A stretch of 64,000 nt of DNA from a phage. The DNA lies in the NCBI GenBank assembly GCA_025812035.1, contig GCA_025812035.1_4719.1, one strand, 5' to 3'. The notes below the pieces were generated by a model. The model saw nothing but the letters and a program-made list of their open reading frames with translations. It did not search any database and had not been told where the DNA came from. The position numbers were made by a program, and so were the translations under genes. Below, in pieces: positions 1,754 to 46,284 of the stretch; position 1 is the stretch's first letter, and each line of letters starts with the position of its first letter.

Positions 1754-2027
1754 GTTCTTTATCCTTTAATGCGTTTTCTAACCAGCGGACATAACTTTCA
1801 CGATAAACATGAATATGTCTTTTACCGTCGCGAAAGTTAGGGTCAATAAGATGAATCGCAGCGTGGGTTGAGGCAGCCGCATGCTGCAAATGTTTTCGTG
1901 TTAATCGTCCACGTTTTACCCAGCGTTGAATATACCGCGCATCTGCTGCGAGACAGGTACGTTCATCGATGAAAGGTACCAATACCTGAACGATACTACC
2001 GTAATACACCATCGAACTGTTGAACAT
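1746..2027 (-). CDS. hypothetical protein (93 aa)
   Basis: complete ORF, minus-strand array. Confidence 0.45.
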   Translation of the reverse strand: MFNSSMVYYGSIVQVLVPFIDERTCLAADARYIQRWVKRGRLTRKHLQHAAASTHAAIHLIDPNFRDGKRHIHVYRESYVRWLENALKDKEHE

Positions 2028-2057
2028 CTGCGTCTCCGTGCAAATGGATGAAGCTGA

Positions 2058-2363
2058 TTAGTGAAGAATTACCGTTTGCATCCGTCTCTCGTATTCGGAT
2101 TGCAACTCGTCATAACGACGATTAACTCTTTCAATAGCATCGTCTATATCTTCGAGGGAGAAGTCTTTTGTTCTTCCGCGTGACGATTCTAGTCGATATA
2201 TAAAAGCATCGCGCATACCTTCAGCGGCGGCAAGTTCACACATCGCGTGATGCTTATCTTCATGGAATATGATGACTGGCTTATCGTATTCACTTGCAGT
2301 AAAGTAGTTACGAATTTCAGCCAATCGTTCCTCTGAGATTGTTACACTGATATTTTCGCTCAT
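2058..2363 (-). CDS. hypothetical protein (101 aa)
   Basis: complete ORF, minus-strand array. Confidence 0.5.
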   Translation of the reverse strand: MSENISVTISEERLAEIRNYFTASEYDKPVIIFHEDKHHAMCELAAAEGMRDAFIYRLESSRGRTKDFSLEDIDDAIERVNRRYDELQSEYERRMQTVILH

Positions 2364-2375
2364 CTTGTATCCCTC

Positions 2376-2708
2376 TTAAAGTTTTAACGTATTGACGCCG
2401 CTTATAAAGGCGTTGATTTCATTGTCGATGTTACCAGTTTGTTCGATAATCTTCTCCACCATCAATCTTGGTTTGTTGTAAGCGATACTTACAGCATCAG
2501 GGCCATTTCCATACATGCTCGCGACGTAAATTCGAAGTTCTTTTAAACGATCAAGTAACAACTGTGTGATATCCAGAACTTCTTCTGTGGCGGTCCGTGT
2601 GTTGCTTTCGCGTAACTTGTGCTCTAACAGCGATGTCGCGGCATCGAGCATGGATGTGTATTTACGATAGTTATAAATATCAATTATAGCTGTCTGATTC
2701 ATATACAC
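2376..2708 (-). CDS. hypothetical protein (110 aa)
   Basis: complete ORF, minus-strand array. Confidence 0.5.
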   Translation of the reverse strand: MYMNQTAIIDIYNYRKYTSMLDAATSLLEHKLRESNTRTATEEVLDITQLLLDRLKELRIYVASMYGNGPDAVSIAYNKPRLMVEKIIEQTGNIDNEINAFISGVNTLKL

Positions 2709-3082: not shown

Positions 3083-3710
3083 TGATACCCTCTATTAGTT
3101 GTACGGCAACTTCTCTTTCGGTGTTATAAAAGAACTTGCGATGGAACTGAACAAGAAGTTTTTCGAATTTACATTGAACGATCTTTTTACGTTCGATGTG
3201 ACCCAGGGAGAGCAAAGCACCCATGCAACGTACTGCTTGTTCGAGAACTTGTTTCGCGGTATCGTGATCGTCAGGCAACGGTAAATCTTCCTCATCATCT
3301 TTAGCGATAAGGCGTCTGATGATGTTATCAATACGTATCTCATCACCGTTAATAAAAGCCCCCTTCTCCCAGTCATCGAATCGTTGATGGATTCGACGTT
3401 GTAAGTTGGCCCTGTCTTCCATTAACTCTTTCAACTGGTTTTCTAAGTTGAATACGGTACGGCGATCTGTTTCAGTGAATCTTTCCGACTCTTTGTACCA
3501 CCAATCATTACGTGCCAGTAAATCATTGACACGCGATACCATCCGACGACATTCACCAACAAGTCCATCACCATTCGGTAGCTCTGTACCGAAATAGCAT
3601 TTGTATTTATAACGCATAACACGGATTAAATGTTTTGCTAGAAAACCTTGTTTTTCCAGTTTCTTCTTCAGTTGCGTGTATTTCTCTTCTTTTGTTTCCA
3701 TTAATTCCAT
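3069..3710 (-). CDS. hypothetical protein (213 aa)
   Basis: complete ORF, minus-strand array. Confidence 0.55.
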   Translation of the reverse strand: MELMETKEEKYTQLKKKLEKQGFLAKHLIRVMRYKYKCYFGTELPNGDGLVGECRRMVSRVNDLLARNDWWYKESERFTETDRRTVFNLENQLKELMEDRANLQRRIHQRFDDWEKGAFINGDEIRIDNIIRRLIAKDDEEDLPLPDDHDTAKQVLEQAVRCMGALLSLGHIERKKIVQCKFEKLLVQFHRKFFYNTEREVAVQLIEGINEVK

Positions 3711-4099
3711 GATGTTGTACCTCGTTCAGCAATCAGGAGGGTCGTGGTTGTGCTTTTCACTAATCTATTAAAGTCTTGATATATCCGCCTGAGGGATGAT
3801 TTCAAATCGCAATAACGACTGAAATAAGCCTTCAGGTCATCTTTTGTCACCGTCTCCGTATTTATTTTCGTAGAAACACCGAGATCGATAAACTCTTTTC
3901 TTAATTGGGATAATTCGTCAAGAAGTCGATGATGGCTTAGATAAATAATAGATTTATCGGATAATAACTCGCCGGTTATCCGGCTCTGGCGTTCATCGAG
4001 ATATTGGAGCCGCCATTCAATTCGCTTGCGTAATTTATCAAGTAAATCAACAAAAGCGGTATAGCTGTTAACGGCTAGGTTAACTTGACTCGCTATCAT
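3701..4099 (-). CDS. hypothetical protein (132 aa)
   Basis: complete ORF, minus-strand array. Confidence 0.5.
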   Translation of the reverse strand: MIASQVNLAVNSYTAFVDLLDKLRKRIEWRLQYLDERQSRITGELLSDKSIIYLSHHRLLDELSQLRKEFIDLGVSTKINTETVTKDDLKAYFSRYCDLKSSLRRIYQDFNRLVKSTTTTLLIAERGTTSWN

Positions 4100-5012: not shown

Positions 5013-5306
5013 TTAATGCAGCCGCTTCTCGAAGTCAGTTTTAAGAAGCACCACTCTTTCATCGATGGTATCCAACGCTTTCAGTAATGATTTACGCTGT
5101 TCCTTTGTAAGCATCTCCGTCTTAAGACGCTTGTTAATTGTTACTTTAAGCTGCACCGCTAGAGTCTGAACAAGCACGCTATCAGCTTCTATCTCGTAAC
5201 TATTTTCTGGCGGTGATAGCACCTCGCTAACGCCAGCGAGATAACAACCTATAACGGTCATTCGTCTATCCATTGCTTCCAGCAACTCAGAACTTACTTC
5301 ATCCAC
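5013..5306 (-). CDS. hypothetical protein (97 aa)
   Basis: complete ORF, minus-strand array. Confidence 0.45.
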   Translation of the reverse strand: MDEVSSELLEAMDRRMTVIGCYLAGVSEVLSPPENSYEIEADSVLVQTLAVQLKVTINKRLKTEMLTKEQRKSLLKALDTIDERVVLLKTDFEKRLH

Positions 5307-5375
5307 GATAACCCTCCGCGAGTTTCTCTATTTCGTTCTGTGTTGCGGGTGGATACACCCACCCGCATCGTTAAT

Positions 5376-6395
5376 TTACACCGCCACCTTAGCCTTGATA
5401 GCCGGATGCGATTGATATCCAACGAACACAAAGTCTTCGTAACGGTAATCCGTAATACTTTCCGGTTTACGTACGATCGTTAGCTTCGGTAATGGATACG
5501 GCTCACGACTGAGCTGCTCTTTAACCTGTTCGAAGTGGTTGTGATAGATGTGACAATCTCCACCAGTCCACACGAACTCACCGACGTCCATATTCAGCTG
5601 TTGGGCAAGCATATGCGTTAACAACGAATATGAGGCGATGTTAAAGCTCCAACCCAAGAGCGTGTCGCACGAACGCTGATAAAGCTGACAGGATAAAGCA
5701 CGTGTTGGTACGTTATGTGTGTTCAACCAAAGTTCTATTTCACTACGTCGTACATCATCCATAACCCACTGGGTTCTTAGTACGTCGTTGCGTCGGACAT
5801 AATCAACGCGTTCATCGATCGTGAGTTCGTGGGTATAGAACTGATAGAAACTGTGGCACGGGGCGAGGTGCATGTCGTCTAAATCGCCTACGTTCCACGC
5901 GCTAACGATGATCCGTCGAGAATCAGGATCTTCTTTAAGCTGACGCATCACGTTTGCAATCTGATCGTGATGTTTAACATACACGAGGTGTTTTAGCATA
6001 CCGTCGTTAAGAATACCACAATACTCGTAACCGCGTTGCATCAACTCGCGAGTACGTTCTGTATCGTGCGGAACAACCACTTTGTAGTCAATCCATTCCC
6101 GCCATTGGCTACCGTAAATCGGTCCTAGATTCCCTTCTTCGTCAGCCCACTCATTCCAAATACGAACACCGTTATCTTGAAGATAAGCAACGTTTGTATC
6201 ACCATTAAGAAACCAGAGCAGTTCGTGGATAACGCTCTTAAGGTGAATCTTCTTAGTGGTTACCAGCGGGAATCCTTTCTTCAAGTCAAAACGCATTTGA
6301 CGTCCGAATACCGAACGGGTACCAGTACCTGTGCGGTCGGCTTTATCGCGACCATTATCCATGATGTCTTGCAAAAGGTCCAAATACTGTTTCAT
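5376..6395 (-). CDS. thyA: thymidylate synthase (ThyA type) with two in-frame insertions
   Basis: N-terminus [46 protein letters not shown], catalytic LAPCH, C-terminal LPKL..KPESI; 339 aa versus about 264 aa for E. coli ThyA. Confidence 0.9.
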
Positions 6396-6604: not shown

Positions 6605-6666
6605 CTCGTAGTAAAAGTAAATAGGATTTGTCGAGACGCCCTAATTACTTACAACGTAGGTTCTCC

Positions 6667-7551
6667 TCAATAACGGCCGTAGCGTTCCTCGAGCCGTTCT
6701 GGTTTTCTCAGAAGGCTATCTTTAAGCGGTACGACGTCGATATCAACACTCTCTGAGTAATAGCCGTTAGAACTACCATACCAACGGATGACAACACAGC
6801 CCTTCGCAGTGCGGATATGGTAGAATGTCCATTGTGTACGTTCGCTATAATAGCCGTAGTCATCGGTTCTTTCCTCGGTTCTTTCTTCAGCACTGAGTAT
6901 CTTTTCACCGATGATATCGTTAATATCGCCCTCAATGTCTTCAAGATACACCTCTTCGCAGCAATCCTGCTGATGACAGAATTCGACAACGTTTCCATCG
7001 CCGCGATAGAAAAGAAGGGCGATACCGTTTCGTAATTGCTCGCTCGTTACATCAGACACGCAATGCAAACTTTTATCGTCGGTTATCACCAAGACATTGT
7101 TGATTACATGCCCGGCAAGCGCTCCAATCTTATTTACCGTAACAATCGGACGAACCGGTTCAGATTGAACGATAGGAATACGGACACAACCAATTAAGGC
7201 CATCCGTCCTTTCGTTGGTCTAACCGCAAGATAAGGTGATTTTCTTGGGTGGTTATGTAGTCGTATTTCTACTTCGTTGAATTTAATCCCGTATGAACAC
7301 AGAAAATAATTGAATAGTTTACGGAATTCCTCGGTTGCTTCTTGCAACGTGATGTTATTTACTGTGAGTTTATGTCCCCTAAACACCCGGGTTAAATCGA
7401 TAACATCCAGTGTTTTGAAATATATTTCCGTAAGGGGATGACCCGTGTATTCCAGGCAAGTAATTGTTCTTTGAACCACGATTTTAGGCGGTGCGCCTTT
7501 AAAACGTTTCAGGTATTTAACGCGATAACGGGTATGATCTGACGTTAACAT
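6667..7551 (-). CDS. hypothetical protein (294 aa; start moved to internal ATG)
   Basis: ATG at 7549..7551 preceded by GGAGAGGAG; the longer track ORF would run through the terminator hairpin at 7627..7647. Confidence 0.55.
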   Translation of the reverse strand: MLTSDHTRYRVKYLKRFKGAPPKIVVQRTITCLEYTGHPLTEIYFKTLDVIDLTRVFRGHKLTVNNITLQEATEEFRKLFNYFLCSYGIKFNEVEIRLHNHPRKSPYLAVRPTKGRMALIGCVRIPIVQSEPVRPIVTVNKIGALAGHVINNVLVITDDKSLHCVSDVTSEQLRNGIALLFYRGDGNVVEFCHQQDCCEEVYLEDIEGDINDIIGEKILSAEERTEERTDDYGYYSERTQWTFYHIRTAKGCVVIRWYGSSNGYYSESVDIDVVPLKDSLLRKPERLEERYGRY

Positions 7552-7614
7552 TTTAATCTCCTCTCCTGGCTTCAGAGAATTCTCAAAATCCGTTAGTTTT
7601 GATAGACGGGATAA

Positions 7615-7647
7615 GACGGCATAAAAGCCTCCCGTATTGGGAGGCTC
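7615..7647 (-). terminator. GC hairpin followed by TTTATGCCG
   Basis: stem AGCCTCCC/GGGAGGCT, then TTTATGCCGTC on the minus strand. Confidence 0.5.
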
Positions 7648-7658
7648 CATTAATCGGC

Positions 7659-9630: not shown

Positions 9631-10860
9631 TCACTTCAGAAGCTTAGACGCCGCCATGCTACGTGCCTTCGCAACGTCATACGCATCCATGATCGCGTCG
9701 CCGATAGCGGTATGACGAATCAACGGAATACCCATGTCTGGATACTCTTTGGTGCCTAAGATGGATACTGGTTTGTCTTGATACGCGGCAAGCATCGAAC
9801 GGATATCCTGAACCTGGTTATACCGACAAACTGGCTTAAAGCCTGCTTTACGGAACCAATGCTCTAATTGAGGCCAATCTGTTTCACCGCGAGCAAGATA
9901 ATAGAAGGTATCTTTACCGTAGTATTCGGTCATCTCATCACGGATATTGTTAACAAATGCATTTACTGTAGCAATGGCTTCTTTATAGTCCATCACTCCG
10001 TCATGCTGAAAACAATAGTCGCGCGCTTCCTTCGGTGCTTTGGTTTGCCACCATTCTACCGTGGACTTACTAATATCACCGCCATCAGCGATTTGACCGT
10101 AAACGTCAGGGAAGATATCTATACGTGGGCCGTTAATAACAGATTCTGGATTAGCCAGATCGAAGAACAAGATGCCGATTTCCAGCAATACCCCGTTCTT
10201 TTCTAGACTGAGATTCTCCACATCCAGGCAAAACGCAGGTTTCTCTACCGCTGAAAAATCAAAATATTCTTCGAGACGCGGCGTTGGTTCGGCGGCGAAA
10301 AACGTCTCATGAATGAACTGGGCGAATGTCTTATTCATTGCTACTAAGTCAATGCCCAATTTACTTAGCAGAGGTATAATCGCGTGGTCATTCTGCTGTA
10401 TCACCACCCACTCTCGGCTTTTGATAGAACGACCAATTGAGTAAAAGAGATGAACGATGTCTAACGGTTTGTACGGAGCCTCAAAAGTTGTTCCCTGGAA
10501 CGACTCAGCCAGCGCCTTATGCGTTTCTTCACGATGATTCATCAGTTGGAGAATAGCGCGGCGCAGATAATACCGTAATGTTATCTCGTGAAGGTGTGAT
10601 ATATCTTCCTGAAATAACGTCATGAAACCGTGGTATGTATAATGCTCGCCTCTTTTAATTTCGTCGAAGAGTTCTTTGTTCCCCTTTATTTCTTCTGGTG
10701 TTACCTGTTTGATTTGATCGTGGATAATGTTGAGCAGGTCACTGCCGTGTACCTTAAACAGTTTTTCAACGCTAAAATCGGGTAATGTCGCAATTGCTGC
10801 GTACATTAATGTTTCTGCGGGATTAAGTTCTTTATTGTCAATTGTGATGGTTAAAGCCAT
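9631..10860 (-). CDS. DnaQ-like (DEDDh) 3'-5' exonuclease domain protein
   Basis: C-terminal half has FCLDVEN (Exo I D-x-E) and HTAIGDAIMDAY (Exo III H-x4-D); start set at ATG 10858..10860 preceded by GAGG. Confidence 0.6.
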   Translation of the reverse strand: MALTITIDNKELNPAETLMYAAIATLPDFSVEKLFKVHGSDLLNIIHDQIKQVTPEEIKGNKELFDEIKRGEHYTYHGFMTLFQEDISHLHEITLRYYLRRAILQLMNHREETHKALAESFQGTTFEAPYKPLDIVHLFYSIGRSIKSREWVVIQQNDHAIIPLLSKLGIDLVAMNKTFAQFIHETFFAAEPTPRLEEYFDFSAVEKPAFCLDVENLSLEKNGVLLEIGILFFDLANPESVINGPRIDIFPDVYGQIADGGDISKSTVEWWQTKAPKEARDYCFQHDGVMDYKEAIATVNAFVNNIRDEMTEYYGKDTFYYLARGETDWPQLEHWFRKAGFKPVCRYNQVQDIRSMLAAYQDKPVSILGTKEYPDMGIPLIRHTAIGDAIMDAYDVAKARSMAASKLLK

Positions 10861-19748: not shown

Positions 19749-21227
19749 ATGATTAAAAATAGGGCAGAACACATGAAACTCAAACAAAGCTGGAAAAACG
19801 AACTCCTTGCATTAGTAAACAGCAAAAACAGTTTACAACTGACATTAGACGACGTAAAATTTGAACTAACCGAACCGGTAAGCGAAGTGCCTGGAACGGT
19901 CGTTGTTACGATCAAACCGAACGATAATAGTCGCTACTTTAACGAGCAGTCTCTGACCTACGTCCGTCGAGACATTGCTAAAAACTTCACCGGGATTCCG
20001 TTACGGGTTATCGTTAAAAAAGATACCGCCGTAAGGGATATCATCAGTACGATTGCTAAACGTTACGGACTGGTATTTGATACCACTGTCGACTTCCTCG
20101 AATCAGAACTGAATAAGCAAATTACTTTCGCAGACACCGGTATTAAAGACGTTACGGTTCCGGTTGCCAATACGTCTTATGTTTGGGCCGGTAATCTTCA
20201 GTTCAATATCGCTAACGATACGTTAAGCTTGATTACTATCATCAAGAAAACCGATCTTACGAATCTGGTTTATCTGGATGGTGTTGAAGCTGACACATCG
20301 GGGTCGTTACTGTTAGCAACCGCAGCACTTGTTAACGAACACGTAAATGAACCGATGGTTGAAAACGAAGATATCGTTAATGAATTCATTAACGTTCTTA
20401 ATGCTCTAGCCAAATATGGTGACATAACCGGCGATGAATTAGATGCCGCCTTACAAGCGTACGATGAAGCAGAAAACAGGAATAAAACCACGGTAATAAC
20501 TCTTGGTGATATCGAGTGCGTTGCAACCGAAAAAGACGATTGGGAAATTGGACATTTACGCGGTCGGATGGTTCTCGCGCTCAAATCCGATAAACAACCG
20601 GAGCTCGATAACACGTTCAGGTTGTTTACGAATGGTGGTGATGTATCGCTAACGTTAAACACAATGAAAGATATAAGTATCGATTGGGGTGATGGGAATA
20701 AAGTAACGTTGGATGCCGAAGAAAGATACGCGCACCACACATATGCCGACAATAACCAATACCAAATCGAAATTGTGTCTCGTACGGACCCAGATGTGCT
20801 GCGACCAAATTATATTTCTGGGAGTGAGATAACCGAAGTAATTCACTGGGCTACTACTTCAACAATAGCTCTGAATTTTGTTGGATGCGATAATTTAGCG
20901 ACTGTTCCAGATGAGATCCCAACTTCGTGGACAACGTTGGACAGCATGTTTGAAAGTTGTACGAATTTGAATGATCCGTCTATCTCTAACTGGAATACAA
21001 GTAACATCACATCAATGAATGGTATGTTCGGCGGATGCACTAAATTTAACCAACCTTTAGCTGCCTGGGATGTCAGCTCGGTAACTGACATTGGTGGTAT
21101 GTTTGTCGGGTGTAGCAGTTTTAACCAAGATTTAAGTGGATGGCGATTACCGTCTGGAGTAAACCACCGCGATTACGATAGTGGTGCTTTCTCGTGGCAG
21201 ACGGAACATAAACCGACGTTCAAGTAA
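19749..21227 (+). CDS. protein with C-terminal DUF285/BspA-type repeats (possible start at ATG 19773)
   Basis: tandem repeats of MF..C..(L/F)N...S.W(N/D)(T/V)S.(I/V)T.M..MF over the last 100 residues. Confidence 0.6.
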   Translation: MIKNRAEHMKLKQSWKNELLALVNSKNSLQLTLDDVKFELTEPVSEVPGTVVVTIKPNDNSRYFNEQSLTYVRRDIAKNFTGIPLRVIVKKDTAVRDIISTIAKRYGLVFDTTVDFLESELNKQITFADTGIKDVTVPVANTSYVWAGNLQFNIANDTLSLITIIKKTDLTNLVYLDGVEADTSGSLLLATAALVNEHVNEPMVENEDIVNEFINVLNALAKYGDITGDELDAALQAYDEAENRNKTTVITLGDIECVATEKDDWEIGHLRGRMVLALKSDKQPELDNTFRLFTNGGDVSLTLNTMKDISIDWGDGNKVTLDAEERYAHHTYADNNQYQIEIVSRTDPDVLRPNYISGSEITEVIHWATTSTIALNFVGCDNLATVPDEIPTSWTTLDSMFESCTNLNDPSISNWNTSNITSMNGMFGGCTKFNQPLAAWDVSSVTDIGGMFVGCSSFNQDLSGWRLPSGVNHRDYDSGAFSWQTEHKPTFK

Positions 21228-22594: not shown

Positions 22595-24856
22595 TCACAA
22601 TTCGAAATCTTCATCGATAACGCGCTGTGTGAGCACCTTGTCACTGAAGAACTCTACTTTGCGCTGATGGTATTTACGGTGCGCTTCGATAGAGGTACAC
22701 ACCAGATACCAGAACGTTGGCGTCATTCCTTCAAACTTCCCTTTCAGCTGACGCAGTCGCCCCAACACCTGAATGTTACCGGTTCGTGATCCCATCGCTA
22801 ACGTCATGAACGCCATCACCAAATCAGGGAGGTCGATACCTGTCCCCGCCGATTTCACGGTTGTAACGCTGATATCGTTATCCAACAAGACCATGAAATC
22901 TTCTTCAGCGGTATAAGGACCGATCTCTAACTCGGGAATACGTTCACTGAGATAGTGCGACAATGACTTACACATATCAACGGTTGCACAATACACCAGC
23001 ATCTTCATACCTTCCTGATACTGGTTCATGAAACCTTTGATGATAACCGTATAGATAAAGTTGAAATACGCGAGTTTGAGTTGCTTATTCTTCATGATAG
23101 ACTGTTCGAATATCGTGTGTGAATAAGAACCCCCAAAGCCTTTGTATCTGATTTTATCTGTACTACGTAGTCGATACGTCACGGCATTTACCGCAATGTA
23201 TTTCTTGTATTCGCCTTTTGCGAAACGCGCTTCTTTCGGATACATCAAATACAACATCCGCTCGATGAACGGATCATCGGATACCGCTGTTGCCGACAGA
23301 TAAATGATTTCCGGAATATTGGCGTAACACTTGACTTTAAACAAGAAATGCAAGGCTTCGTGACATTCGTCGTGAATCAGTAGACCTATACCCGTCTTTT
23401 CCCAAAACTCAGCGGGATGGAAGGCGTATGGCGCAACGCAGTTATTCTTCTCGTAGTCCGCAATATAACGTTGGAACATGTTCAAGGAGAATAACGCGAT
23501 TTTGAAATCCAGCTCGCCTTGTTCCACCAACGTCTGGAATTCCAGCATGCTGTAACGAGGAATGTCGGGATGCGGTGGATCCTCCTTAGCGTTCCCGCGT
23601 ATCTCAATAACGTCCCCTGGTTCCATTCCGAAGAAGTTCAGCAATGAGCTTCGCCAACCTGGCATATACCGTGGAGAGAGTATGATGCCTGTGCGTACAC
23701 CACGTCGAAACACGATTTCCTGTGACATCGCGGTGTTGTGTGTGACGATGTGGTCTTTAATGACATAAAGGCTTTCGTCATTATCCACCGTGATGCAACG
23801 TGCTTTCGCTTTAACTGTCGGTACGATGCTATCAATCGCTAAACCAGGAAGCCTGTTAACAGGGAGATCGTCTGGAATCTCAACGTCGTCAGGAATAAGC
23901 TTAAGTAAATCGGAATGATAAATTAATGTCTCCATCGTGTAACTATCGATGGGGCATTTATACGCAATTCCTCCTAACTGATACGCCAACTCCCAAACCT
24001 TGGTTGTTATCTGTGAATCAACGGTTCTGACCGCAAGGTGAGCCTGTCCGTTTTCGATTCGCAACTCACAACGACCTTTGACCACCACCTTAAATTCTTC
24101 GAGACCTACGAGTTCTTTCGGTTCGTAAAGTCGGATTCTTATCGGACGGGGTCTGGCAGGTTTATCGTAAAGACATTCCATGATTTCGTCTGTGCTGAGA
24201 ACCTTATCGGGGTCAGTACAACGCCAGAGATGATCGCCACAAGCTTCAACCATTCTACCGTCCTCAAAGAAGATAGCATAAAGCTGAATATTGTCATGAT
24301 CGAAGATCGCTGTAACGTTGGTCGGTAGCCCATTCGCACCAATAACCCGATCCCCTACTTGAAGCTCACCAATCGGCTTCCAACCACCTGGAACCTTTAC
24401 AGGCGTATGAAGCGCTAGCGCTTTGCCACTGCCTGTTTGAGCGGTGTTTAGGCTCATTCTGAAGGGGGTATCCTTACCCCCGTTCATGTACTCCAGCCAT
24501 TCTTGCTGATCTTCTCGCCACGGAAACTTCCATTTCTTTACGAACTCCACTTCCTTACCGGGTACCGGATCATGGTAAACGATCTCCAGCCACTCTTTTC
24601 GGATTCCTCGGGAAAAGATAAAATCCAAAAACGATTTCAACTGTTCGCGGAGTAAGTATACCTCGCTATAATCGCTTCTCGCTGCGGCATACGTGTTTAT
24701 GGTATCGGTAACCATTCTCCGTGTACGAGGGTCACGTCGTTTCCTCAGATGCAAACAACGGTCTCGAAGGTAATGGCCGATAAGATGGGCAAATCGAAGT
24801 CCGTATCCGCTCAGCTTCATGCCATGCGAGAAGACGTCGATACGAGCTAACTTCAT
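22595..24856 (-). CDS. SF2 (DExH-box) helicase precursor containing an in-frame intein in the P-loop
   Basis: Walker A AQTGSGK interrupted, DExH box LLIHDECHEA, motif III LSATA, motif VI QVLGRLRQ; start codon overlaps stop of the beta' C gene. Confidence 0.7.
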   Translation of the reverse strand: MKLARIDVFSHGMKLSGYGLRFAHLIGHYLRDRCLHLRKRRDPRTRRMVTDTINTYAAARSDYSEVYLLREQLKSFLDFIFSRGIRKEWLEIVYHDPVPGKEVEFVKKWKFPWREDQQEWLEYMNGGKDTPFRMSLNTAQTGSGKALALHTPVKVPGGWKPIGELQVGDRVIGANGLPTNVTAIFDHDNIQLYAIFFEDGRMVEACGDHLWRCTDPDKVLSTDEIMECLYDKPARPRPIRIRLYEPKELVGLEEFKVVVKGRCELRIENGQAHLAVRTVDSQITTKVWELAYQLGGIAYKCPIDSYTMETLIYHSDLLKLIPDDVEIPDDLPVNRLPGLAIDSIVPTVKAKARCITVDNDESLYVIKDHIVTHNTAMSQEIVFRRGVRTGIILSPRYMPGWRSSLLNFFGMEPGDVIEIRGNAKEDPPHPDIPRYSMLEFQTLVEQGELDFKIALFSLNMFQRYIADYEKNNCVAPYAFHPAEFWEKTGIGLLIHDECHEALHFLFKVKCYANIPEIIYLSATAVSDDPFIERMLYLMYPKEARFAKGEYKKYIAVNAVTYRLRSTDKIRYKGFGGSYSHTIFEQSIMKNKQLKLAYFNFIYTVIIKGFMNQYQEGMKMLVYCATVDMCKSLSHYLSERIPELEIGPYTAEEDFMVLLDNDISVTTVKSAGTGIDLPDLVMAFMTLAMGSRTGNIQVLGRLRQLKGKFEGMTPTFWYLVCTSIEAHRKYHQRKVEFFSDKVLTQRVIDEDFEL
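23735..24421 (-). other. intein (229 aa, residues A146..N374 of the helicase precursor)
   Basis: inserted between GSGK and T of Walker A; ends ..VTHN followed by Thr; Ala at position 1, DHLW and RCITV segments resemble the class 3 Trp/Cys/Thr arrangement. Confidence 0.55.
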
Positions 24857-28496: not shown

Positions 28497-28507
28497 CGTA
28501 ATATACA

Positions 28508-28921
28508 TCAGAAAGGTGTGCGGTTTTTATATTCGAATAGTGTCTGAAGGACGCATCGCGCTAGCGAGTTTTGTAATTCGATACGTCCTTGTTCTCCGAA
28601 CAGATCCAACACCATCATCCCTTTTGCTGTTTTCTCTGCCACTTCTTCACAAATCTGTAAATTGTACATGTCGTCATTACCGAGTTCCTTTCGACCGATC
28701 GAACTGACATGCATCAACTCACCTTTACTATCGCGAACATCGGAGAATGCATCATAGACCGCATCGATGTTCGCAGAACGCGTCAAACCCTCCGCTTCAC
28801 GCCATTCTCGGTATGTATCATCAAGCGTTTGTTCCTCGCTCGAGGTCGTTGATTCACCGTTAGTAGTTGGACGAATCAAATTGGGTGTTATCATTGCTAT
28901 TACGCTATCGTAATGCTCCAT
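28508..28921 (-). CDS. hypothetical protein (137 aa)
   Basis: complete ORF. Confidence 0.45.
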   Translation of the reverse strand: MEHYDSVIAMITPNLIRPTTNGESTTSSEEQTLDDTYREWREAEGLTRSANIDAVYDAFSDVRDSKGELMHVSSIGRKELGNDDMYNLQICEEVAEKTAKGMMVLDLFGEQGRIELQNSLARCVLQTLFEYKNRTPF

Positions 28922-28932
28922 CGTTTACCTCG

Positions 28933-31101
28933 TTAGCTTTCACAGTCATCTGCGTCGATGATTTGTCCGCCAGCAACGTTCAGTTGATGATACAGAATCC
29001 TCAACGCACGGTTACCGCCAATGGGATACTTCTCGAAGTTGGTCGCAATAGGAATCGCTGATGGCTTATCGGTCGCATAGATACTCTCAGTGATGCTATC
29101 CACCTGTTTTGGATTGTTCGCATAGTCCATAAAGACGCTCGCGAACCATCCGCCAGCAAAGGCGGTAACTTCACGATGTTCAGATTCACCGCAGTAACGA
29201 GTCGGTTGCTCTTTACCAGGAGAACTGTATTTATCGCTATTACTGAGTTTCGACGGTAACCCATGTGCTTGAAGTTTAGGGATACCCACCGCCGACCAAT
29301 CGTTCGCCGTTTTCTCCAACATCATGATGTACGTGTCGCCGATCGCAATAGCGTTCTTGGTTGTCCGCCACTGCCCAGAACGCCCACGGTACCGTACAGG
29401 ACCTTTCTTCAACGGGAACTCACGAATCAGATTCTCCATACGTTCTGAACCTGCTGCGATACTGTCTGTCGGGATATAAACCTCCGTACCATGGCGTTGT
29501 ACGTACCGTAAATGATCCCATTTATCCTCATCCGTGATACAGTGTTTCTCAACAACCTGTTCCACGAATTCAGGACTGACGATATAGTAGTAACGCATCA
29601 ATGTGTTCCATGCTGTCTCCAGATCACCGGCATCCATCACCGGTTTCAGCTCACGCATGATCTGGTCACCAACACCGTTGATGTATGGCGCATTAACACG
29701 ACTTAAGCTCATCCTTTTGATTACTGTACTATCGTCGAACATGAAGTCCGCAACATTGCCCCATTGGTCAACCGGCATCTCATCGTCTTCCATGATGTCG
29801 GTTACGACGAATTTATCGCCAGCCATCCCAGTGAATTTAAACCCGATGCCCGGAACAACGTCGTACGTGTATGTGATAGTCACACGCCAATCATCAAGAT
29901 TCTCTTTACGATAATCGCGGGTCGGCAACACATGACGTAGCTGTCCGTTAGGGTTGCGGATATCAATACCGTGTTCAGCATCAGCCAGGTTCAACCACCA
30001 CATCACGGTTTGATGATGGCGTATTGGTGTACCGACACGTTCACGTTCGTACTTACGAACAGCATCCTGAATCCGGGTGTAAAGCAAACCGATCGCGTTC
30101 TCGTATTTCAGGAATTGACGATACGGAGGACGCATCTTCTCTTCCATCATAATCGCACGCTCGCGGGCTTGACGTCCAGAACGACGGTGTCGATCGCTGA
30201 CAACATCAATATCCGTTACACGCGCATTCGGTTCGGCGTAAGTGAGATCATCGTAAACATAATCCACACGCTGAAGATTGCATGTCATCATGTCAACAAC
30301 GCTGAGAATAGGATCTATTTCACGTGTTGCTGCAAGTAACCCATCTTTACGAATACGCTCACCGTTCTCGGGTATCGCTTGATATACCTCGTCATCACCG
30401 TAGAGATTGATTGGGTATCGCGATTTACCTGATGTAATTGTTCGCTTCTCAATACCGGTACTGGTGAAATGCTTCAATACACCACGACGGGCAACACCAC
30501 CATCTTCAATACACTGGTAGAAGCTACCGAAACACACCTTGCAATCGCGACCGTAACCCCACTCGCGTGTTTCTTGATTGATCGCTGGGCTTTCCATCAA
30601 ACGAGAATATCGCGGTACGATCTGGCCTCGACGAAGGGAATGGAACAAATTGGTTGGTCGAAAACGGAAACCGTACTGCTGATGCATGATGTGATGCTCA
30701 GGCACTTCAAGCAATCGTAGTTCATGGCGGTTACCATCCTCTTGGTTTTCATACAGCACGTAATGCATCGTGTTTGTTTTGATGCTGTTTGCTGTATGCC
30801 CCGGCTGAAAACGTGGGATGATATCTATGATGCGAGATTCAACTGGAAACTCTACTGACCACGTGTTCTGTCCGTACTGGTATTCGATCCCCGTCGTCAG
30901 TCTGGACGGCTTCGCATCCTTGATAACTAAGGCTTGACTAAGGTGACCGCCAAACATCGCAGCACGCTGCGCTGAGTTATAATGCAATAGCCCGTTAAGT
31001 CCAGTCCCTACACCAGTATACTCCTGTTTAATGGGGATGATTTTACCTTCAGCGATTGCCTGCTTCACAGATTCATAAAGAGGTTTTTCTTTATAATGCA
31101 T
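28933..31101 (-). CDS. multisubunit RNA polymerase beta-like subunit, C-terminal fragment
   Basis: NSAQRAAM (compare beta GANMQRQA), FTGMAGDKFVV..DEMP (compare KMAGRHGNKGV..EDMP), GESEHREVTAFAGG (compare GEMEVWALEAYGAA); start at ATG 31099..31101 with AGGAAG RBS. Confidence 0.7.
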   Translation of the reverse strand: MHYKEKPLYESVKQAIAEGKIIPIKQEYTGVGTGLNGLLHYNSAQRAAMFGGHLSQALVIKDAKPSRLTTGIEYQYGQNTWSVEFPVESRIIDIIPRFQPGHTANSIKTNTMHYVLYENQEDGNRHELRLLEVPEHHIMHQQYGFRFRPTNLFHSLRRGQIVPRYSRLMESPAINQETREWGYGRDCKVCFGSFYQCIEDGGVARRGVLKHFTSTGIEKRTITSGKSRYPINLYGDDEVYQAIPENGERIRKDGLLAATREIDPILSVVDMMTCNLQRVDYVYDDLTYAEPNARVTDIDVVSDRHRRSGRQARERAIMMEEKMRPPYRQFLKYENAIGLLYTRIQDAVRKYERERVGTPIRHHQTVMWWLNLADAEHGIDIRNPNGQLRHVLPTRDYRKENLDDWRVTITYTYDVVPGIGFKFTGMAGDKFVVTDIMEDDEMPVDQWGNVADFMFDDSTVIKRMSLSRVNAPYINGVGDQIMRELKPVMDAGDLETAWNTLMRYYYIVSPEFVEQVVEKHCITDEDKWDHLRYVQRHGTEVYIPTDSIAAGSERMENLIREFPLKKGPVRYRGRSGQWRTTKNAIAIGDTYIMMLEKTANDWSAVGIPKLQAHGLPSKLSNSDKYSSPGKEQPTRYCGESEHREVTAFAGGWFASVFMDYANNPKQVDSITESIYATDKPSAIPIATNFEKYPIGGNRALRILYHQLNVAGGQIIDADDCES

Positions 31102-43587: not shown

Positions 43588-45028
43588 CTTACGTGCACCG
43601 ACGTTTATTAACTCATGGTTATCCACTGAAATACGGCGTTAGGGAAATAATCCTTCTTGCCGCGTTTTGAGATTTGCAATGCCATATTACTCGGAGACAA
43701 TCTGTAATGCCATGCTGCTTCATCGATAGAACTAAACTTCTTTGTTTCGCCGTTATCAAAGATGATTTTCAACGCTAGTTTAGGTAAATCGTCTTCCGTT
43801 TCTACTAGTTCGAAAGAATCGATATTCTCTGCCAGCGTTAACGGATCAACAGGTAATATCAGCCAACCAGCACGCTGCAATCCTCCACGTAGACTAATTT
43901 GTTTATTCAACGCAGGGGTAGCCATGCCAACTAACTTAGCAGCCAGCTTGCGGTCTTTAATATAAAGACGATAATCTCCGGTATTATTAATAGCATACAC
44001 ACCAAAGTTATTGAACGATACCTTTCCAGCATCGGAACTAGTAAAGCCTACAAAGTCGTGGCTGTCGGTAGCCACGTCGTATTTAAATGCTAATGGCTTG
44101 TTTCGACTGCCGCTAAGATACTTCTTGGCTGTAGATACCGATATGTTGAGATATCGTCCAATAGCATTCAAACTTTCTAGTTCGATGATTTCTCCTGTCA
44201 ATATGTCCTTTAACCGAACATTACCCATCGGTATTGGTGGTTTACCGACATAACCCAATTCACGATATGCGTGTTTCAAGTTATCTGAATCAGTAGCCCA
44301 TTCCAAATTTTCTAGTCTGTTATCCCAACGCACTCCATTAAGATGATTAGGGACACGACGGATTATACCTGACGTCGGATCTGGGTTAAATGTTTCAAGG
44401 ACGATCTGATGATGGTATTTCACTTTGTTGTTCCTAGTGAAAGCGCGATAGTTGTTTTTGCCCGACTTGGGTGGTTCAGTACGAAACAACACTGTCAGAC
44501 TAGACACATCTACTATCGTACCGTTCTTATTAACAACGATACCATCAAAACCATTAACAGGACGATAATCAGACAAACAATCTTCAGAAATTGCCTGTCC
44601 AACTAAAGGTTCACTCAATTTGACCTCCTTTATAAAAGAAGTCGGTGCACGTAATTATCGACTATATCTTCATCCTCGTTGCGAGGAGTCTCCCGTTTTG
44701 GTCTGTGTTTAACAGAGCCTACTCTACTCGACATCGCGTCTTTCGATAGTCTGTGAGCACACATCTTAACGAACATTCGTGGATTCCTAAGCAGGTGAAC
44801 GTTCTTGTTGAGATGCTTCGCTGCGGATTATTCCCGTCCTACCTCTTTTACCATACCCAGTTCATTACGCTGGCCCTCATCTGTGTCACCACGATGAGTT
44901 GGTGTGTAGTCCGATTACAGAAACTTCCCGTCAATTAGAGAGTTTTAACTACGTTCCTGTTACCAGAAACCCGACTCCGACGATATCAATTAAATCAACG
45001 TAAATTATTGATTTAATTGAAGAAACTG
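43588..45028 (-). mobile_element. group I intron 1 with embedded HNH homing endonuclease gene
   Basis: IGS GAGUCGG (44971..44977) pairs with exon end CCGACUU with terminal U-G; P AAUUGACGGGAAG (44924..44936), Q AAUCCGCAGC (44820..44829), R ACAGACUAUCG (44744..44754), S AAGAUAUAGUCG (44659..44670); 12-bp stem 44641..44652 with 43591..43602 loops out the ORF; ends with G at 43588. Confidence 0.7.
43608..44618 (-). CDS. HNH homing endonuclease (intron-encoded), UUG start
   Basis: HHQIVLETF..NHLNGVRWDNRLENLEWATDSDNLKHA HNH motif; AAGGAGGT RBS before UUG; lies entirely inside intron 1. Confidence 0.75.
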   Translation of the reverse strand: MSEPLVGQAISEDCLSDYRPVNGFDGIVVNKNGTIVDVSSLTVLFRTEPPKSGKNNYRAFTRNNKVKYHHQIVLETFNPDPTSGIIRRVPNHLNGVRWDNRLENLEWATDSDNLKHAYRELGYVGKPPIPMGNVRLKDILTGEIIELESLNAIGRYLNISVSTAKKYLSGSRNKPLAFKYDVATDSHDFVGFTSSDAGKVSFNNFGVYAINNTGDYRLYIKDRKLAAKLVGMATPALNKQISLRGGLQRAGWLILPVDPLTLAENIDSFELVETEDDLPKLALKIIFDNGETKKFSSIDEAAWHYRLSPSNMALQISKRGKKDYFPNAVFQWITMS

Positions 45029-46284
45029 AAGTCGGCATTATAACCTTTCAAGATCATCACGCTTAACCCGATGGTGTTATCCTGCGGATCGCGTTTAACC
45101 TTGGTGATTTCAAGACATTGGTTACTGCTTCGGTCAAGTGATGGATTTCGAACAAAACCACACACAATCCCATCAAACGGTGTATCAGCAATAAGCTCAT
45201 CGTGCAGCTCGCTCATCATCGGATGATAATTACGGACATGTTCCGCAACGAACGCACGTGCTGCTCTTGGTGAATAACCACGATGGAATAACTTGGATTG
45301 GATATGTTCTTTATTGGTTAATGTAAATGGCGCGTATGGGAAATGCAGATGATAATAACGATGGTTCGCTGTTATCGAACTGATTACGGTACGCGTGGTG
45401 AATGGATGTAATGTACCTAATATGTTTTTACGTGTGATACCTTTCTTCTTACCGATGAACTCATCGAAAATCGCCGAGTGGTACTGCAGCAGCTTCAGTT
45501 GTACTTTCGCCATCCAGTTTTCTTTCTTTCTGGCGCTCAAAGGTGTTGTTGGGTGATAGATACTATTCAATGTACCGATAGCATCGATCGCACCTTCCAT
45601 TTTGCTATCTGCATAACGACCGGTTGGTGTATTCTCGATAACGAACATCATGGCGGCAGGAAAACTGATATACTGGCTGAAGAACTTATCGCGATGAATG
45701 CGGGTGAATTCTCGTAGCGTATCAACTTTCTCCGTGTTCTTCGGTCCGCGTAACGTAGGTCCTTTATACAAGATCTCCATGATGCGATCGAAGTTCTGTA
45801 TAAAGCTATTTATCCCACGTCGTATCCCGAATACATCGAATTGCTGCTCCAGATAGTTCTTGAGTTCGATGGGTCGTTTTACGTTTGGACGGTAACTGGC
45901 ATCAATGAGCCACGTCATCGTTTCAAAGCTTTTGATATTCAACTCGCTTGCCAGCACGAGATGGACCAACGGGTTAATAAACGCATCAATTCCTTCAGGA
46001 ACACGCGCCCAAACCGTCGAACGAATCTCTTGTTCTGCTGGGTAGGTTACAACCGTTTTACAGTTTGGACACACCGTGCCAAGCAGCTCACCACGATTGT
46101 AGAAACCACATCCACATTGTGGTGTGATATCCAACGTATCGCTGGAGTAAACACGGGTGATAAAACTGTTTAATTTCTTCTTCTCTTCGACGACTTTTGT
46201 GTCGTAATCATTCAACAAAATAGGCGTAAAAGGAAGTTCTGCGAGCTGTCTATCGAAACTCACGATATCGAGCATGATGGCCAT
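45029..46284 (-). CDS. RNA polymerase beta' N-terminal fragment, exon 1 (ends ..YNADF)
   Basis: zinc finger CGCGFYNRGELLGTVCPNCK and ..NPSL.R...Q.....IGL..ILKGYNADF parallel E. coli beta' up to NADF; unspliced frame stops 5 codons after NADF. Confidence 0.75.

What the first reader, a model, noticed from the sequence alone, without database searches (positions are those of the whole stretch)
23735..24421. Intein inserted in the P-loop of an SF2 helicase, with class 3-like Ala1 and Trp/Cys/Thr features
In ORF 22595..24856 the Walker A motif reads AQTGSGK, followed by a 229-residue insert (ALALHTPVKVPGGW..IVTHN), then T; removing the insert rebuilds GSGKT followed by the DExH, SAT and QxxGRxxR helicase motifs. 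The insert starts with Ala rather than Cys/Ser, has a His-x-Trp (DHLW) in the block B position, a Cys in RCITVDND near the C-terminus, and Thr before the terminal His-Asn. That is the arrangement described for class 3 inteins, which are known to sit in P-loops of phage helicases.
Basis: partly seen in the sequence, partly recalled or inferred. Interest (0 to 1): 0.8.

Follow-up and report, generated by a model that had tools for sequence, protein, structure and literature searches.

The report
Class 3 intein in phage helicase P-loop
A 229-residue self-splicing protein element (an intein of the class that starts with alanine and uses an internal cysteine) interrupts the ATP-binding loop of a conserved helicase in a Goslar-like jumbo phage; it is real, but it is an ordinary new member of a well-described kind.

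Summary
It encodes a 753-aa protein in which GSGK|T is split by a 229-aa insert (window 23735..24421).

Escherichia phage Goslar, the nearest relative, has the same helicase (97% aa identity, 524 aa) with exactly these 229 residues missing. Two more near-identical phage pairs (Kwan/Wellington, Rebecca/Ea35-70) show presence or absence of a related insert at the same Lys|Thr bond.

The insert matches the solved class 3 DnaB inteins by sequence (E 3e-12) and by predicted fold (pLDDT 87.8; Foldseek TM 0.84-0.89). Ala1, His64, Trp66, Cys209, Thr227, His228-Asn229 and Thr+1 align to their catalytic residues.

Across 119 database relatives, all in P-loop sites, the Trp/Cys/Thr signature is essentially invariant. 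Most relatives carry a LAGLIDADG endonuclease. This copy has lost both motifs and keeps a roughly 110-aa remnant that is still under purifying selection.

Synonymous divergence from Goslar peaks around the site, a recombination footprint.

This is a new member of a known kind. Splicing itself is untested.

The parts
22595..24856 (-). Helicase precursor ORF, 753 aa: N-extein + intein + C-extein
   Evidence: The exact protein is also found on Logan contig SRR22004794_250.
24422..24856 (-). N-extein, aa 1-145, ending in Walker A G-S-G-K (24422..24433)
   Evidence: Identical to Goslar gp164 except for 3 residues.
23735..24421 (-). Intein, 229 aa
   Evidence: Absent from Goslar gp164. PDB phmmer E 3e-12. 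AF2 pLDDT 87.8. Foldseek best hits are class 3 inteins.
24191..24421 (-). N-terminal splicing lobe (intein residues 1-77, blocks A and B). Contains Ala1 (24419..24421), Cys61 at B:7 (24239..24241), His64 at B:10 (24230..24232) and Trp66 at B:12 (24224..24226).
   Evidence: pLDDT 95-98.
23852..24190 (-). Central ~113-aa remnant of a LAGLIDADG homing endonuclease (intein residues 78-190). Both LAGLIDADG motifs are missing.
   Evidence: Alignment to the Kwan/Rebecca full-length inteins. Pfam LAGLIDADG_3 hits Kwan but not this intein. dN/dS 0.15 against the Salmonella-labelled copy. pLDDT 64-90.
23735..23851 (-). C-terminal splicing lobe (intein residues 191-229, blocks F and G). Contains Cys209 at F:4 (23795..23797) and Thr227-His228-Asn229 (23735..23743).
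   Evidence: NCBIfam TIGR01443 intein_Cterm scores above its cutoff.
23732..23734 (-). Thr+1: the Walker A threonine, which is also the C-extein nucleophile
   Evidence: The +1 residue is T in 108 and S in 11 of 119 relatives.
22595..23734 (-). C-extein, aa 375-753 plus stop. Carries DECH (23360..23371), SAT (23288..23296) and QVLGRLR (22751..22771).
   Evidence: PHROG 16 'DNA helicase' E 1.2e-26.
23270..24586 (-). Tract of raised synonymous divergence from Goslar around the insertion site (spliced codons 91-300): a recombination or co-conversion footprint
   Evidence: pS 0.72 inside the tract versus 0.22 outside, Fisher p 1e-19.

Best explanation
The insert is a class 3 intein in the Walker A loop of the conserved SF2-type helicase of a Goslar-like, nucleus-forming jumbo phage.

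**What the sequence and homology show**
- The gene is translated as a 753-aa precursor. Its P-loop is split between Lys145 and Thr375, so the precursor cannot be expected to bind ATP properly.

**Inferred mechanism, by residue-for-residue homology to Msm/Mch DnaB intein 1**
1. The block F cysteine Cys209, activated by His64 (B:10) and Thr227 (G:5) and packed by Trp66 (B:12), attacks the Lys145-Ala1 peptide bond. This forms the class-specific block F thioester branched intermediate.
2. The N-extein is passed to the side chain of Thr+1.
3. Asn229, assisted by His228, cyclises and releases the 229-aa intein.
4. An O-N shift leaves a native GSGK-T Walker A in a 524-aa helicase colinear with Goslar gp164 (same length, 97% aa identity).

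**DNA level**
- The element descends from a LAGLIDADG-endonuclease-bearing intein that homes into this site in many P-loop NTPases.
- This copy has lost both endonuclease motifs. It is probably no longer self-mobile and is now inherited vertically or moved by ordinary recombination.
For: **1. Precise absence from near-identical orthologues**
- Goslar gp164 is 97% identical and lacks exactly residues 146-374.
- The same holds for Kwan versus Wellington and for Rebecca versus Ea35-70, each pair 99.8% identical in the exteins.

**2. Sequence homology to solved class 3 inteins**
- 6rix/6riy/6bs8 match at E 3e-12 to 1e-11. Ala1, His, Trp, Cys and Thr-His-Asn are aligned.
- The roles of those residues are given in PMC7664689 and PMC6195587.

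**3. Fold**
- The AF2 model has pLDDT 87.8 and pTM 0.85.
- The top seven Foldseek PDB hits are the class 3 DnaB inteins, with target-normalised TM 0.84-0.89.

**4. Family signature in 119 inteins extracted from a profile search**
- Ala1 in 112; His B:10 in 119; Trp in 118; Cys F:4 in 119; Thr G:5 in 119; His-Asn in 119.
- The +1 residue is Thr in 108 and Ser in 11. Most sit directly after the P-loop Gly-Lys (about 90 of the 119 by the commonest flank tallies; 15 read RGR) in PhoH, DnaB, SNF2, AAA, terminase and similar hosts.

**5. NCBIfam**
- intein_Cterm (TIGR01443) scores above its curated cutoff.

**6. Selection**
- Exteins versus Goslar: dN/dS 0.03.
- Intein versus an 88%-identical copy on another contig: dN/dS 0.12, with no indels. 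Both the host gene and the intein are therefore being kept functional.

**7. Recombination footprint**
- There is a peak of synonymous divergence centred on the site.
Against: - No experiment: neither splicing nor the use of Cys209 has been shown for this protein or, to my knowledge, for any of its jumbo-phage relatives.
- Pfam Hint models hit only weakly (E 0.09-0.19, below cutoffs).
- Block B position 7 is Cys61, not the Asp of the mycobacterial class 3 inteins or the Thr of class 1. The fine mechanism may therefore differ.
- Engineering the WCT signature into a class 1 intein did not give splicing (PMC7664689), so the signature alone does not guarantee activity.
- A decayed class 3-like intein that fails to splice has been documented (PMC3196547).
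Confidence: 0.85

Rival explanations
1. It is an intein by descent but is splicing-dead. The helicase would then be a pseudogene, or a protein that tolerates or uses the permanent insert.
For: - The endonuclease part has clearly decayed.
- A non-splicing class 3-like intein pseudogene exists in Arthrobacter (PMC3196547).
- Splicing was not tested here.
Against: - All catalytic residues are intact, unlike the Arthrobacter case, which lacks His B:10 and Cys F:4.
- The helicase is conserved in 291 phage records, and its exteins show dN/dS 0.03.
- The intein itself shows dN/dS 0.12 with no indels or stops.
- The insert splits Lys from Thr in Walker A, which a working ATPase could not tolerate.
Confidence: 0.06
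2. It splices, but not through the block F cysteine. Two options: direct attack of Thr+1 on the N-terminal junction (class 2-like), or another cysteine such as Cys61 as the first nucleophile.
For: - Ala1 is shared with class 2 inteins.
- Cys61 at B:7 is conserved in 95 of 119 relatives and sits at a position that contacts the N-terminal scissile bond in other inteins (PMC6195587, for Asp62).
Against: - Class 2 inteins are reported only in KlbA and lack WCT (PMC3196547).
- Cys F:4, Trp B:12 and Thr G:5 are invariant in the family, whereas B:7 varies (C/S/T/D/G).
- Kwan and EL have Gly at B:7.
Confidence: 0.06
3. The insert is a lineage-specific accessory domain of the helicase, not a removable element.
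For: The central part is predicted to fold and is under purifying selection.
Against: - It is absent from the 97%-identical Goslar protein, and related inserts are absent from 99.8%-identical partners in two other pairs.
- It has a HINT fold with intein catalytic residues.
- It breaks the Walker A motif.
Confidence: 0.01

Closest known systems
Mycobacterial DnaB intein 1: Msm DnaBi1 (PDB 6bs8/6own) and MchDnaB1 (6rix/6riy). Experimentally characterised class 3 mini-inteins.
   Same: - Starts ALAL(D/Y/H)TP.
- His-x-Trp in block B, R-C-(V/I)-x-V-D-N in block F, T-H-N at the end.
- Inserted in the P-loop of a helicase ATPase, immediately before the Mg-coordinating Ser/Thr that doubles as the +1 nucleophile.
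- Best match both by sequence (E 3e-12) and by fold (TM 0.84-0.89).
   Different: - The host is a bacterial RecA-fold DnaB (SF4), not a phage SF2 helicase.
- The +1 residue is Ser, not Thr.
- B:7 is Asp62 rather than Cys61.
- They are 139-145 aa with a short disordered linker, whereas this one is 229 aa with a ~110-aa folded endonuclease remnant.
- Only about 18-19% identity over the Foldseek structural alignment; the N-terminal lobe aligned by phmmer is visibly more similar.
Unannotated inteins at the same site of the orthologous helicase in other phiKZ-like jumbo phages: Erwinia phages Kwan and Rebecca, Pseudomonas phage EL, Serratia 2050HW and others. A second helicase in phage SL2 also carries one.
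   Same: - Same Lys|Thr bond of the same gene, next to the RNA polymerase beta subunit gene.
- Same WCT signature and IVTHN|T end.
- Same sporadic presence/absence pattern.
   Different: - Only 30-41% identical.
- Kwan and Rebecca (342 and 345 aa) keep a two-motif LAGLIDADG endonuclease. EL (248 aa) and SL2 (274 aa) keep part of one.
- This copy is the shortest of the five compared and has neither motif.
- They begin V/M/A-x-x-L rather than ALAL.
Mycobacteriophage class 3 inteins: MP-Be DnaB, MP-Catera gp206, TerL1 P-loop inteins
   Same: - Phage-borne class 3 inteins in P-loop NTPases.
- The 'classic' insertion between the invariant Lys and the nucleophilic Thr (PMC5050341).
- 300 mycobacteriophage records appear among the tblastn hits.
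   Different: - Different hosts (Actinobacteria) and different host proteins.
- I did not align them individually.
gp41-1 class 1 intein (PDB 6qaz/6riz) of a cyanophage-like DnaB helicase
   Same: HINT fold and Thr at G:5. It is the second-best PDB sequence match (E 8e-8).
   Different: It has Cys1 and Asp at F:4 and uses class 1 chemistry. Grafting WCT onto it did not make it splice (PMC7664689).

Membership tests
Intein (HINT-fold protein-splicing element) | In-frame insertion in a conserved host protein that is absent from close orthologues, leaving a colinear host sequence | tested here: met
   Goslar gp164 is 97% identical and lacks exactly aa 146-374. Two further presence/absence pairs at the same bond.
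Intein (HINT-fold protein-splicing element) | Hedgehog/intein (HINT) fold | tested here: met
   AF2 pLDDT 87.8, with the splicing lobes at 95-98. 58 Foldseek PDB hits at E<=0.001; the 50 best listed are inteins, bacterial intein-like (BIL) or hedgehog HINT domains.
Intein (HINT-fold protein-splicing element) | Block B His (B:10), C-terminal His-Asn, and a Ser/Thr/Cys at +1 | tested here: met
   His64, His228-Asn229 and Thr375. NCBIfam intein_Cterm scores above its cutoff.
Intein (HINT-fold protein-splicing element) | Autocatalytic excision with ligation of the exteins | not testable with these tools
   Needs expression of the precursor or phage proteomics.
Class 3 intein | No Ser/Thr/Cys nucleophile at intein position 1 | tested here: met
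   Ala1. Ala in 112 of 119 relatives.
Class 3 intein | Trp at block B position 12 | tested here: met
   Trp66 aligned to MchDnaB1 Trp67. Present in 118 of 119 relatives.
Class 3 intein | Cys at block F position 4 | tested here: met
   Cys209 aligned to MchDnaB1 Cys124 and Msm DnaBi1 Cys118. Present in 119 of 119 relatives.
Class 3 intein | Thr at block G position 5 | tested here: met
   Thr227 aligned to Thr143. Present in 119 of 119 relatives.
Class 3 intein | Falls inside the monophyletic class 3 clade (Tori and Perler 2011, as summarised in PMC3196547) | tested here: inconclusive
   The nearest solved structures by sequence and by fold are class 3, and all retrieved relatives carry WCT. No formal tree with class 1 outgroups was built.
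Class 3 intein | Block F thioester branched intermediate; splicing depends on Cys F:4 | not testable with these tools
   Needs a C209A mutant and detection of the intermediate.
Mobile intein with an active LAGLIDADG homing endonuclease | Two LAGLIDADG motifs with catalytic acidic residues (blocks C and E) | tested here: not met
   No Pfam LAGLIDADG hit for this intein, whereas Kwan's gives PF14528 at E 2e-11. The alignment shows the motif 1 half deleted and the motif 2 helix missing.
SF2 (XPB/SSL2-like) helicase: the host protein | Walker A GxGKT, motif II DExH, motif III SAT, motif VI QxxGRxxR | tested here: met
   GSGK|T, DECH and SAT are present. Motif VI is QVLGRLR, one residue short of the textbook spacing.
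SF2 (XPB/SSL2-like) helicase: the host protein | Significant match to curated helicase family models | tested here: inconclusive
   PHROG 16 'DNA helicase' E 1.2e-26. Pfam ResIII, DEAD and Helicase_C and NCBIfam XPB all fall below their curated cutoffs. PDB XPBII E 0.23.

The most novel reading that the evidence does not exclude
The intein may be more than a passive passenger. The proposal is that it works as a conditional switch on an essential helicase of a nucleus-forming phage.

- Cys61 at block B position 7 is conserved in 95 of 119 relatives. That position lies next to the N-terminal scissile bond in other inteins.
- Cys61 could form a reversible disulfide, or a zinc site, with the catalytic Cys209. 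This would resemble the Cys48-Cys118 redox trap of Msm DnaBi1.
- Helicase maturation would then be delayed under oxidative or metal stress.
- The folded endonuclease remnant, which is under purifying selection, could have been kept for a DNA- or protein-binding role.

Nothing here tests this. It rests only on residue conservation and on analogy.
Probability: 0.1. Interest if true: 0.6.

Novelty: new member of a known kind. Interest (0 to 1): 0.3.

Why it matters
- **Annotation.** Helicase genes of this type in Goslar-like and other phiKZ-like phages are deposited simply as 'DNA helicase', 'terminase' or 'DarB-like antirestriction'. The intein goes unnoticed, which inflates protein lengths and confuses orthology.
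- **Biology.** It adds a clean, recent presence/absence pair (this phage versus Goslar) with a recombination footprint. It also adds a naturally endonuclease-less class 3 intein from an E. coli-group phage, which would be easy to test in E. coli and might be useful for class 3 intein engineering.
- **What it does not change.** It does not alter what is known about intein mechanisms or their distribution.

Tried and rejected
- **Pfam scan** of the whole protein and of the insert gave only sub-threshold Hint hits (E 0.09-0.19). On its own that would not have supported an intein.
- **Single-sequence search of the 5.8-billion-protein index** found only two relatives. A 5-sequence profile was needed to reach 511.
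- **Literature searches** for inteins in phiEL, Chimalliviridae, phiKZ or jumbo phages found no description of this helicase intein. Tori and Perler 2011 (PMC3133030) is not in the held library. I therefore could not check my recollection that InBase lists phage EL helicase inteins.
- **Megablast and blastn** of the intein plus divergent tract against 50,697 phage records found only Goslar, and only its extein parts. No DNA-level donor was identified, so the gain-versus-loss direction could not be decided.
- **Rfam at gathering threshold** found nothing in the window.
- **Accessory-domain reading** was considered and rejected.
- **Plus-strand ORFs overlapping the region**, such as 24038..24328, were treated as shadows of the minus-strand gene.
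Full report
**1. The observation**

- The ORF listing shows a 753-aa ORF at 22595..24856 on the minus strand. The plus-strand translation of the same interval is full of stops.
- In the minus-strand protein the Walker A motif is interrupted after Lys145. The context is ..LNTAQTGSGK | ALALHTPVKVPGGW ... KDHIVTHN | TAMSQEIV...
- The insert is residues 146-374 (229 aa), which is window 23735..24421, as reported.
- Deleting it gives a 524-aa protein with GSGKT, DECH, SAT and QVLGRLR.
- Within the insert the key residues are Ala1, Cys61, His64, Trp66, Cys209, Thr227, His228 and Asn229.

**2. It is a discrete, removable element**

- The only DNA-level relative in 50,697 phage records is Escherichia phage Goslar, a phiKZ-like, nucleus-forming jumbo phage. 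It matches the gene in two pieces that skip the insert.
- Goslar gp164 is annotated 'DNA helicase' and lies next to an RNA polymerase beta subunit gene. It is 524 aa and 97% identical to the exteins, and the alignment gap is exactly residues 146-374.
- The orthologous helicases of Erwinia phages Kwan and Rebecca and of Pseudomonas phage EL, and a second helicase in phage SL2, carry related inserts of 342, 345, 248 and 274 aa at the same GxGK|T bond.
- Kwan versus Wellington and Rebecca versus Ea35-70 have exteins 99.8% identical, with or without the insert.
- The helicase itself is found in 291 phage records, and many give a single uninterrupted alignment.

**3. It is a HINT domain with the class 3 catalytic set**

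- Pfam Hint models hit only weakly.
- phmmer against PDB gives E 3e-12 to 1e-11 for the MchDnaB1 and Msm DnaBi1 inteins. The alignment places His64/Trp66 on His65/Trp67, Cys209 on Cys124 (Mch) and Cys118 (Msm), and Thr227-His-Asn on Thr143-His-Asn.
- PMC7664689 describes Cys124-His65-Thr143 as a protease-like triad with Trp67. PMC6195587 shows that C118A abolishes splicing.
- PMC3196547 gives the class definition: no N-terminal nucleophile, Trp at B:12, Cys at F:4, Thr at G:5.
- NCBIfam intein_Cterm passes its curated cutoff.
- An AlphaFold2 model built on a 62-sequence alignment has mean pLDDT 87.8 and pTM 0.85, with 95-98 over both splicing lobes.
- The seven best Foldseek PDB hits are the two solved class 3 DnaB inteins (target-normalised TM 0.84-0.89). 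Next come gp41-1, PI-SceI and other inteins.

**4. The family**

- A profile of five jumbo-phage inteins retrieved 511 proteins at E<=1e-5.
- I delimited the intein in 119 of the 120 listed proteins.
- 112 begin with Ala. All 119 have His B:10, Cys F:4, Thr G:5 and His-Asn. 118 have Trp B:12. The +1 residue is Thr in 108 and Ser in 11.
- Most sit directly after the Gly-Lys of a P-loop (about 90 of 119 by the commonest flank tallies). Hosts include PhoH, DnaB, SNF2, AAA ATPases, terminase, IstB-like and ABC ATPases.
- PMC5050341 calls the Lys|Thr position the 'classic' P-loop intein insertion.
- The median length is 350 aa with Pfam LAGLIDADG_3.
- Position B:7 is Cys in 95 of 119, whereas the mycobacterial inteins have Asp there.

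**5. The middle of the intein**

- Kwan and Rebecca align with two LAGLIDADG motifs (..LLGALIGNGS....LRGLMDTDGTV..). Kwan's intein scores PF14528 at E 2e-11.
- The window's intein lacks the first half of that domain and the second LAGLIDADG helix. It keeps only the distal part..AHLAVRTVDSQITTKVWELAYQLGGIAYK.., which aligns with ..VQYLVRSLGGIA...
- It has no Pfam endonuclease hit. It is therefore an endonuclease-dead intein, and I infer that it cannot home by itself.
- The remnant is nevertheless predicted to fold (pLDDT 64-90).
- It is conserved against an 88%-identical copy on a 454-bp contig of a Salmonella Enteritidis assembly, with no indels. dN/dS is 0.12 over residues 59-209 and 0.15 over residues 78-190, with binomial p 7e-7 against neutrality.
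- The simplest reading is selection for a precursor that folds and splices, because the host gene is essential. A retained binding role cannot be excluded.

**6. Footprint of mobility**

- The window and Goslar are on average 92% identical in 150-nt windows (sd 5.5%).
- Inside the helicase gene, synonymous differences per synonymous site run as follows:

| Spliced codons | pS |
|---|---|
| 1-90 | 0-0.17 |
| 91-150 | about 0.5 |
| 151-270 | 0.6 to above 1 (saturated) |
| after codon 300 | 0.15-0.35 |

- For comparison, the neighbouring RNA polymerase gene has pS 0.26.
- Pooled, pS is 0.72 inside codons 91-300 and 0.22 outside, Fisher p 1e-19. Amino-acid identity stays high throughout.
- This is the pattern expected if the intein, with flanking extein DNA, was brought in from a more distant allele (homing with co-conversion). 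It is equally expected if Goslar lost the intein by recombination with a distant intein-free allele. I could not decide the direction, because no third close genome or DNA-level donor was found.

**7. Mechanism**

- Shown: the anatomy, the homology, the fold prediction, and the selection and recombination signatures.
- Inferred by homology:
  1. Cys209 attacks the Lys145-Ala1 bond to give the block F branched thioester.
  2. The N-extein is transferred to Thr375.
  3. Asn229 cyclises and releases the intein.
  4. An O-N shift restores GSGKT in a 524-aa helicase.
- The precursor should be ATPase-dead, because Lys and Thr of Walker A are 229 residues apart.

**8. Comparison with the known, and novelty**

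- This is what the literature describes for class 3 inteins: phage-associated, helicase- and P-loop-associated, carrying the WCT signature (PMC3196547, PMC5050341, PMC6195587, PMC7664689).
- All sequence-testable membership criteria are met.
- Not tested: the formal clade test and the biochemical criteria.
- I found no paper describing inteins in the helicase of phiKZ-like phages. Related copies are nonetheless already present, unannotated, in public genomes.
- I rate it a new member of a known kind, with interest about 0.3.
- It is a correct and well-read finding, useful for annotation and as a handy endonuclease-free class 3 intein, but not surprising to a specialist.

Noticed in passing
window 43608..46284 (-): A group I intron (Rfam RF00028, 44642..45019, 47.8 bits against a gathering score of 50, E 3.1e-10) lies between an RNA polymerase beta-prime fragment ORF (45013..46284) and an HNH-type ORF (43608..44618). 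Goslar has the same layout annotated. This is a second selfish element in an essential gene of the same window.
   Followed up: partly
window 3701..4099 (-) and 6667..7650 (-): Two ORFs (132 aa and 327 aa) sit in DNA that has no counterpart in Goslar. The blastn blocks break at about 3699-4093 and about 6666-7562. Function not examined.
   Followed up: no
window 20320..21195: This stretch does not align to the Goslar segment of equal length at the 3' part of the BspA-family leucine-rich-repeat gene. It looks like a replaced or hyper-divergent region.
   Followed up: no
window 28501..28950, 2026..2400, 5026..5400, 10201..10500: Other short islands where identity to Goslar drops to 60-78% against a 92% background. 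Possibly further recombination patches.
   Followed up: no
L008 (GCA_011544915.1 contig AAQHKR010000135.1, 454 bp): An assembly labelled Salmonella Enteritidis holds a fragment of the same endonuclease-less intein: 88% aa and 88.5% nt identity. This implies that a second Goslar-like phage carrying this intein was present in a Salmonella sample.
   Followed up: partly
P0003 (Salmonella Derby contig, 452 aa partial): A related helicase intein at AIQTGRGK| begins Cys-Cys rather than Ala, yet keeps the block B Trp, block F Cys and block G Thr. It carries a class 3 signature together with a position-1 nucleophile.
   Followed up: no
P0002 (396 aa, ENA contig 8 kb): A 204-aa intein starts ALALDTE and ends TTHN|SS. 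It sits in a protein with dCTP-deaminase Pfam domains, after ..RIEGK. That is a host which is not an obvious P-loop NTPase.
   Followed up: no
window 24239..24241 (-), intein Cys61: Block B position 7 is Cys here and in 95 of 119 relatives. Mycobacterial class 3 inteins have Asp there and class 1 inteins have Thr. A possible partner for Cys209 in a disulfide; untested (PMC6195587).
   Followed up: partly
L007 (Logan SRR22004794_250, 20.7 kb): The exact 753-aa precursor, with the same neighbouring genes, occurs on an assembly of a public sequencing run. The phage has therefore been sequenced, although it is not in the phage collection searched.
   Followed up: no
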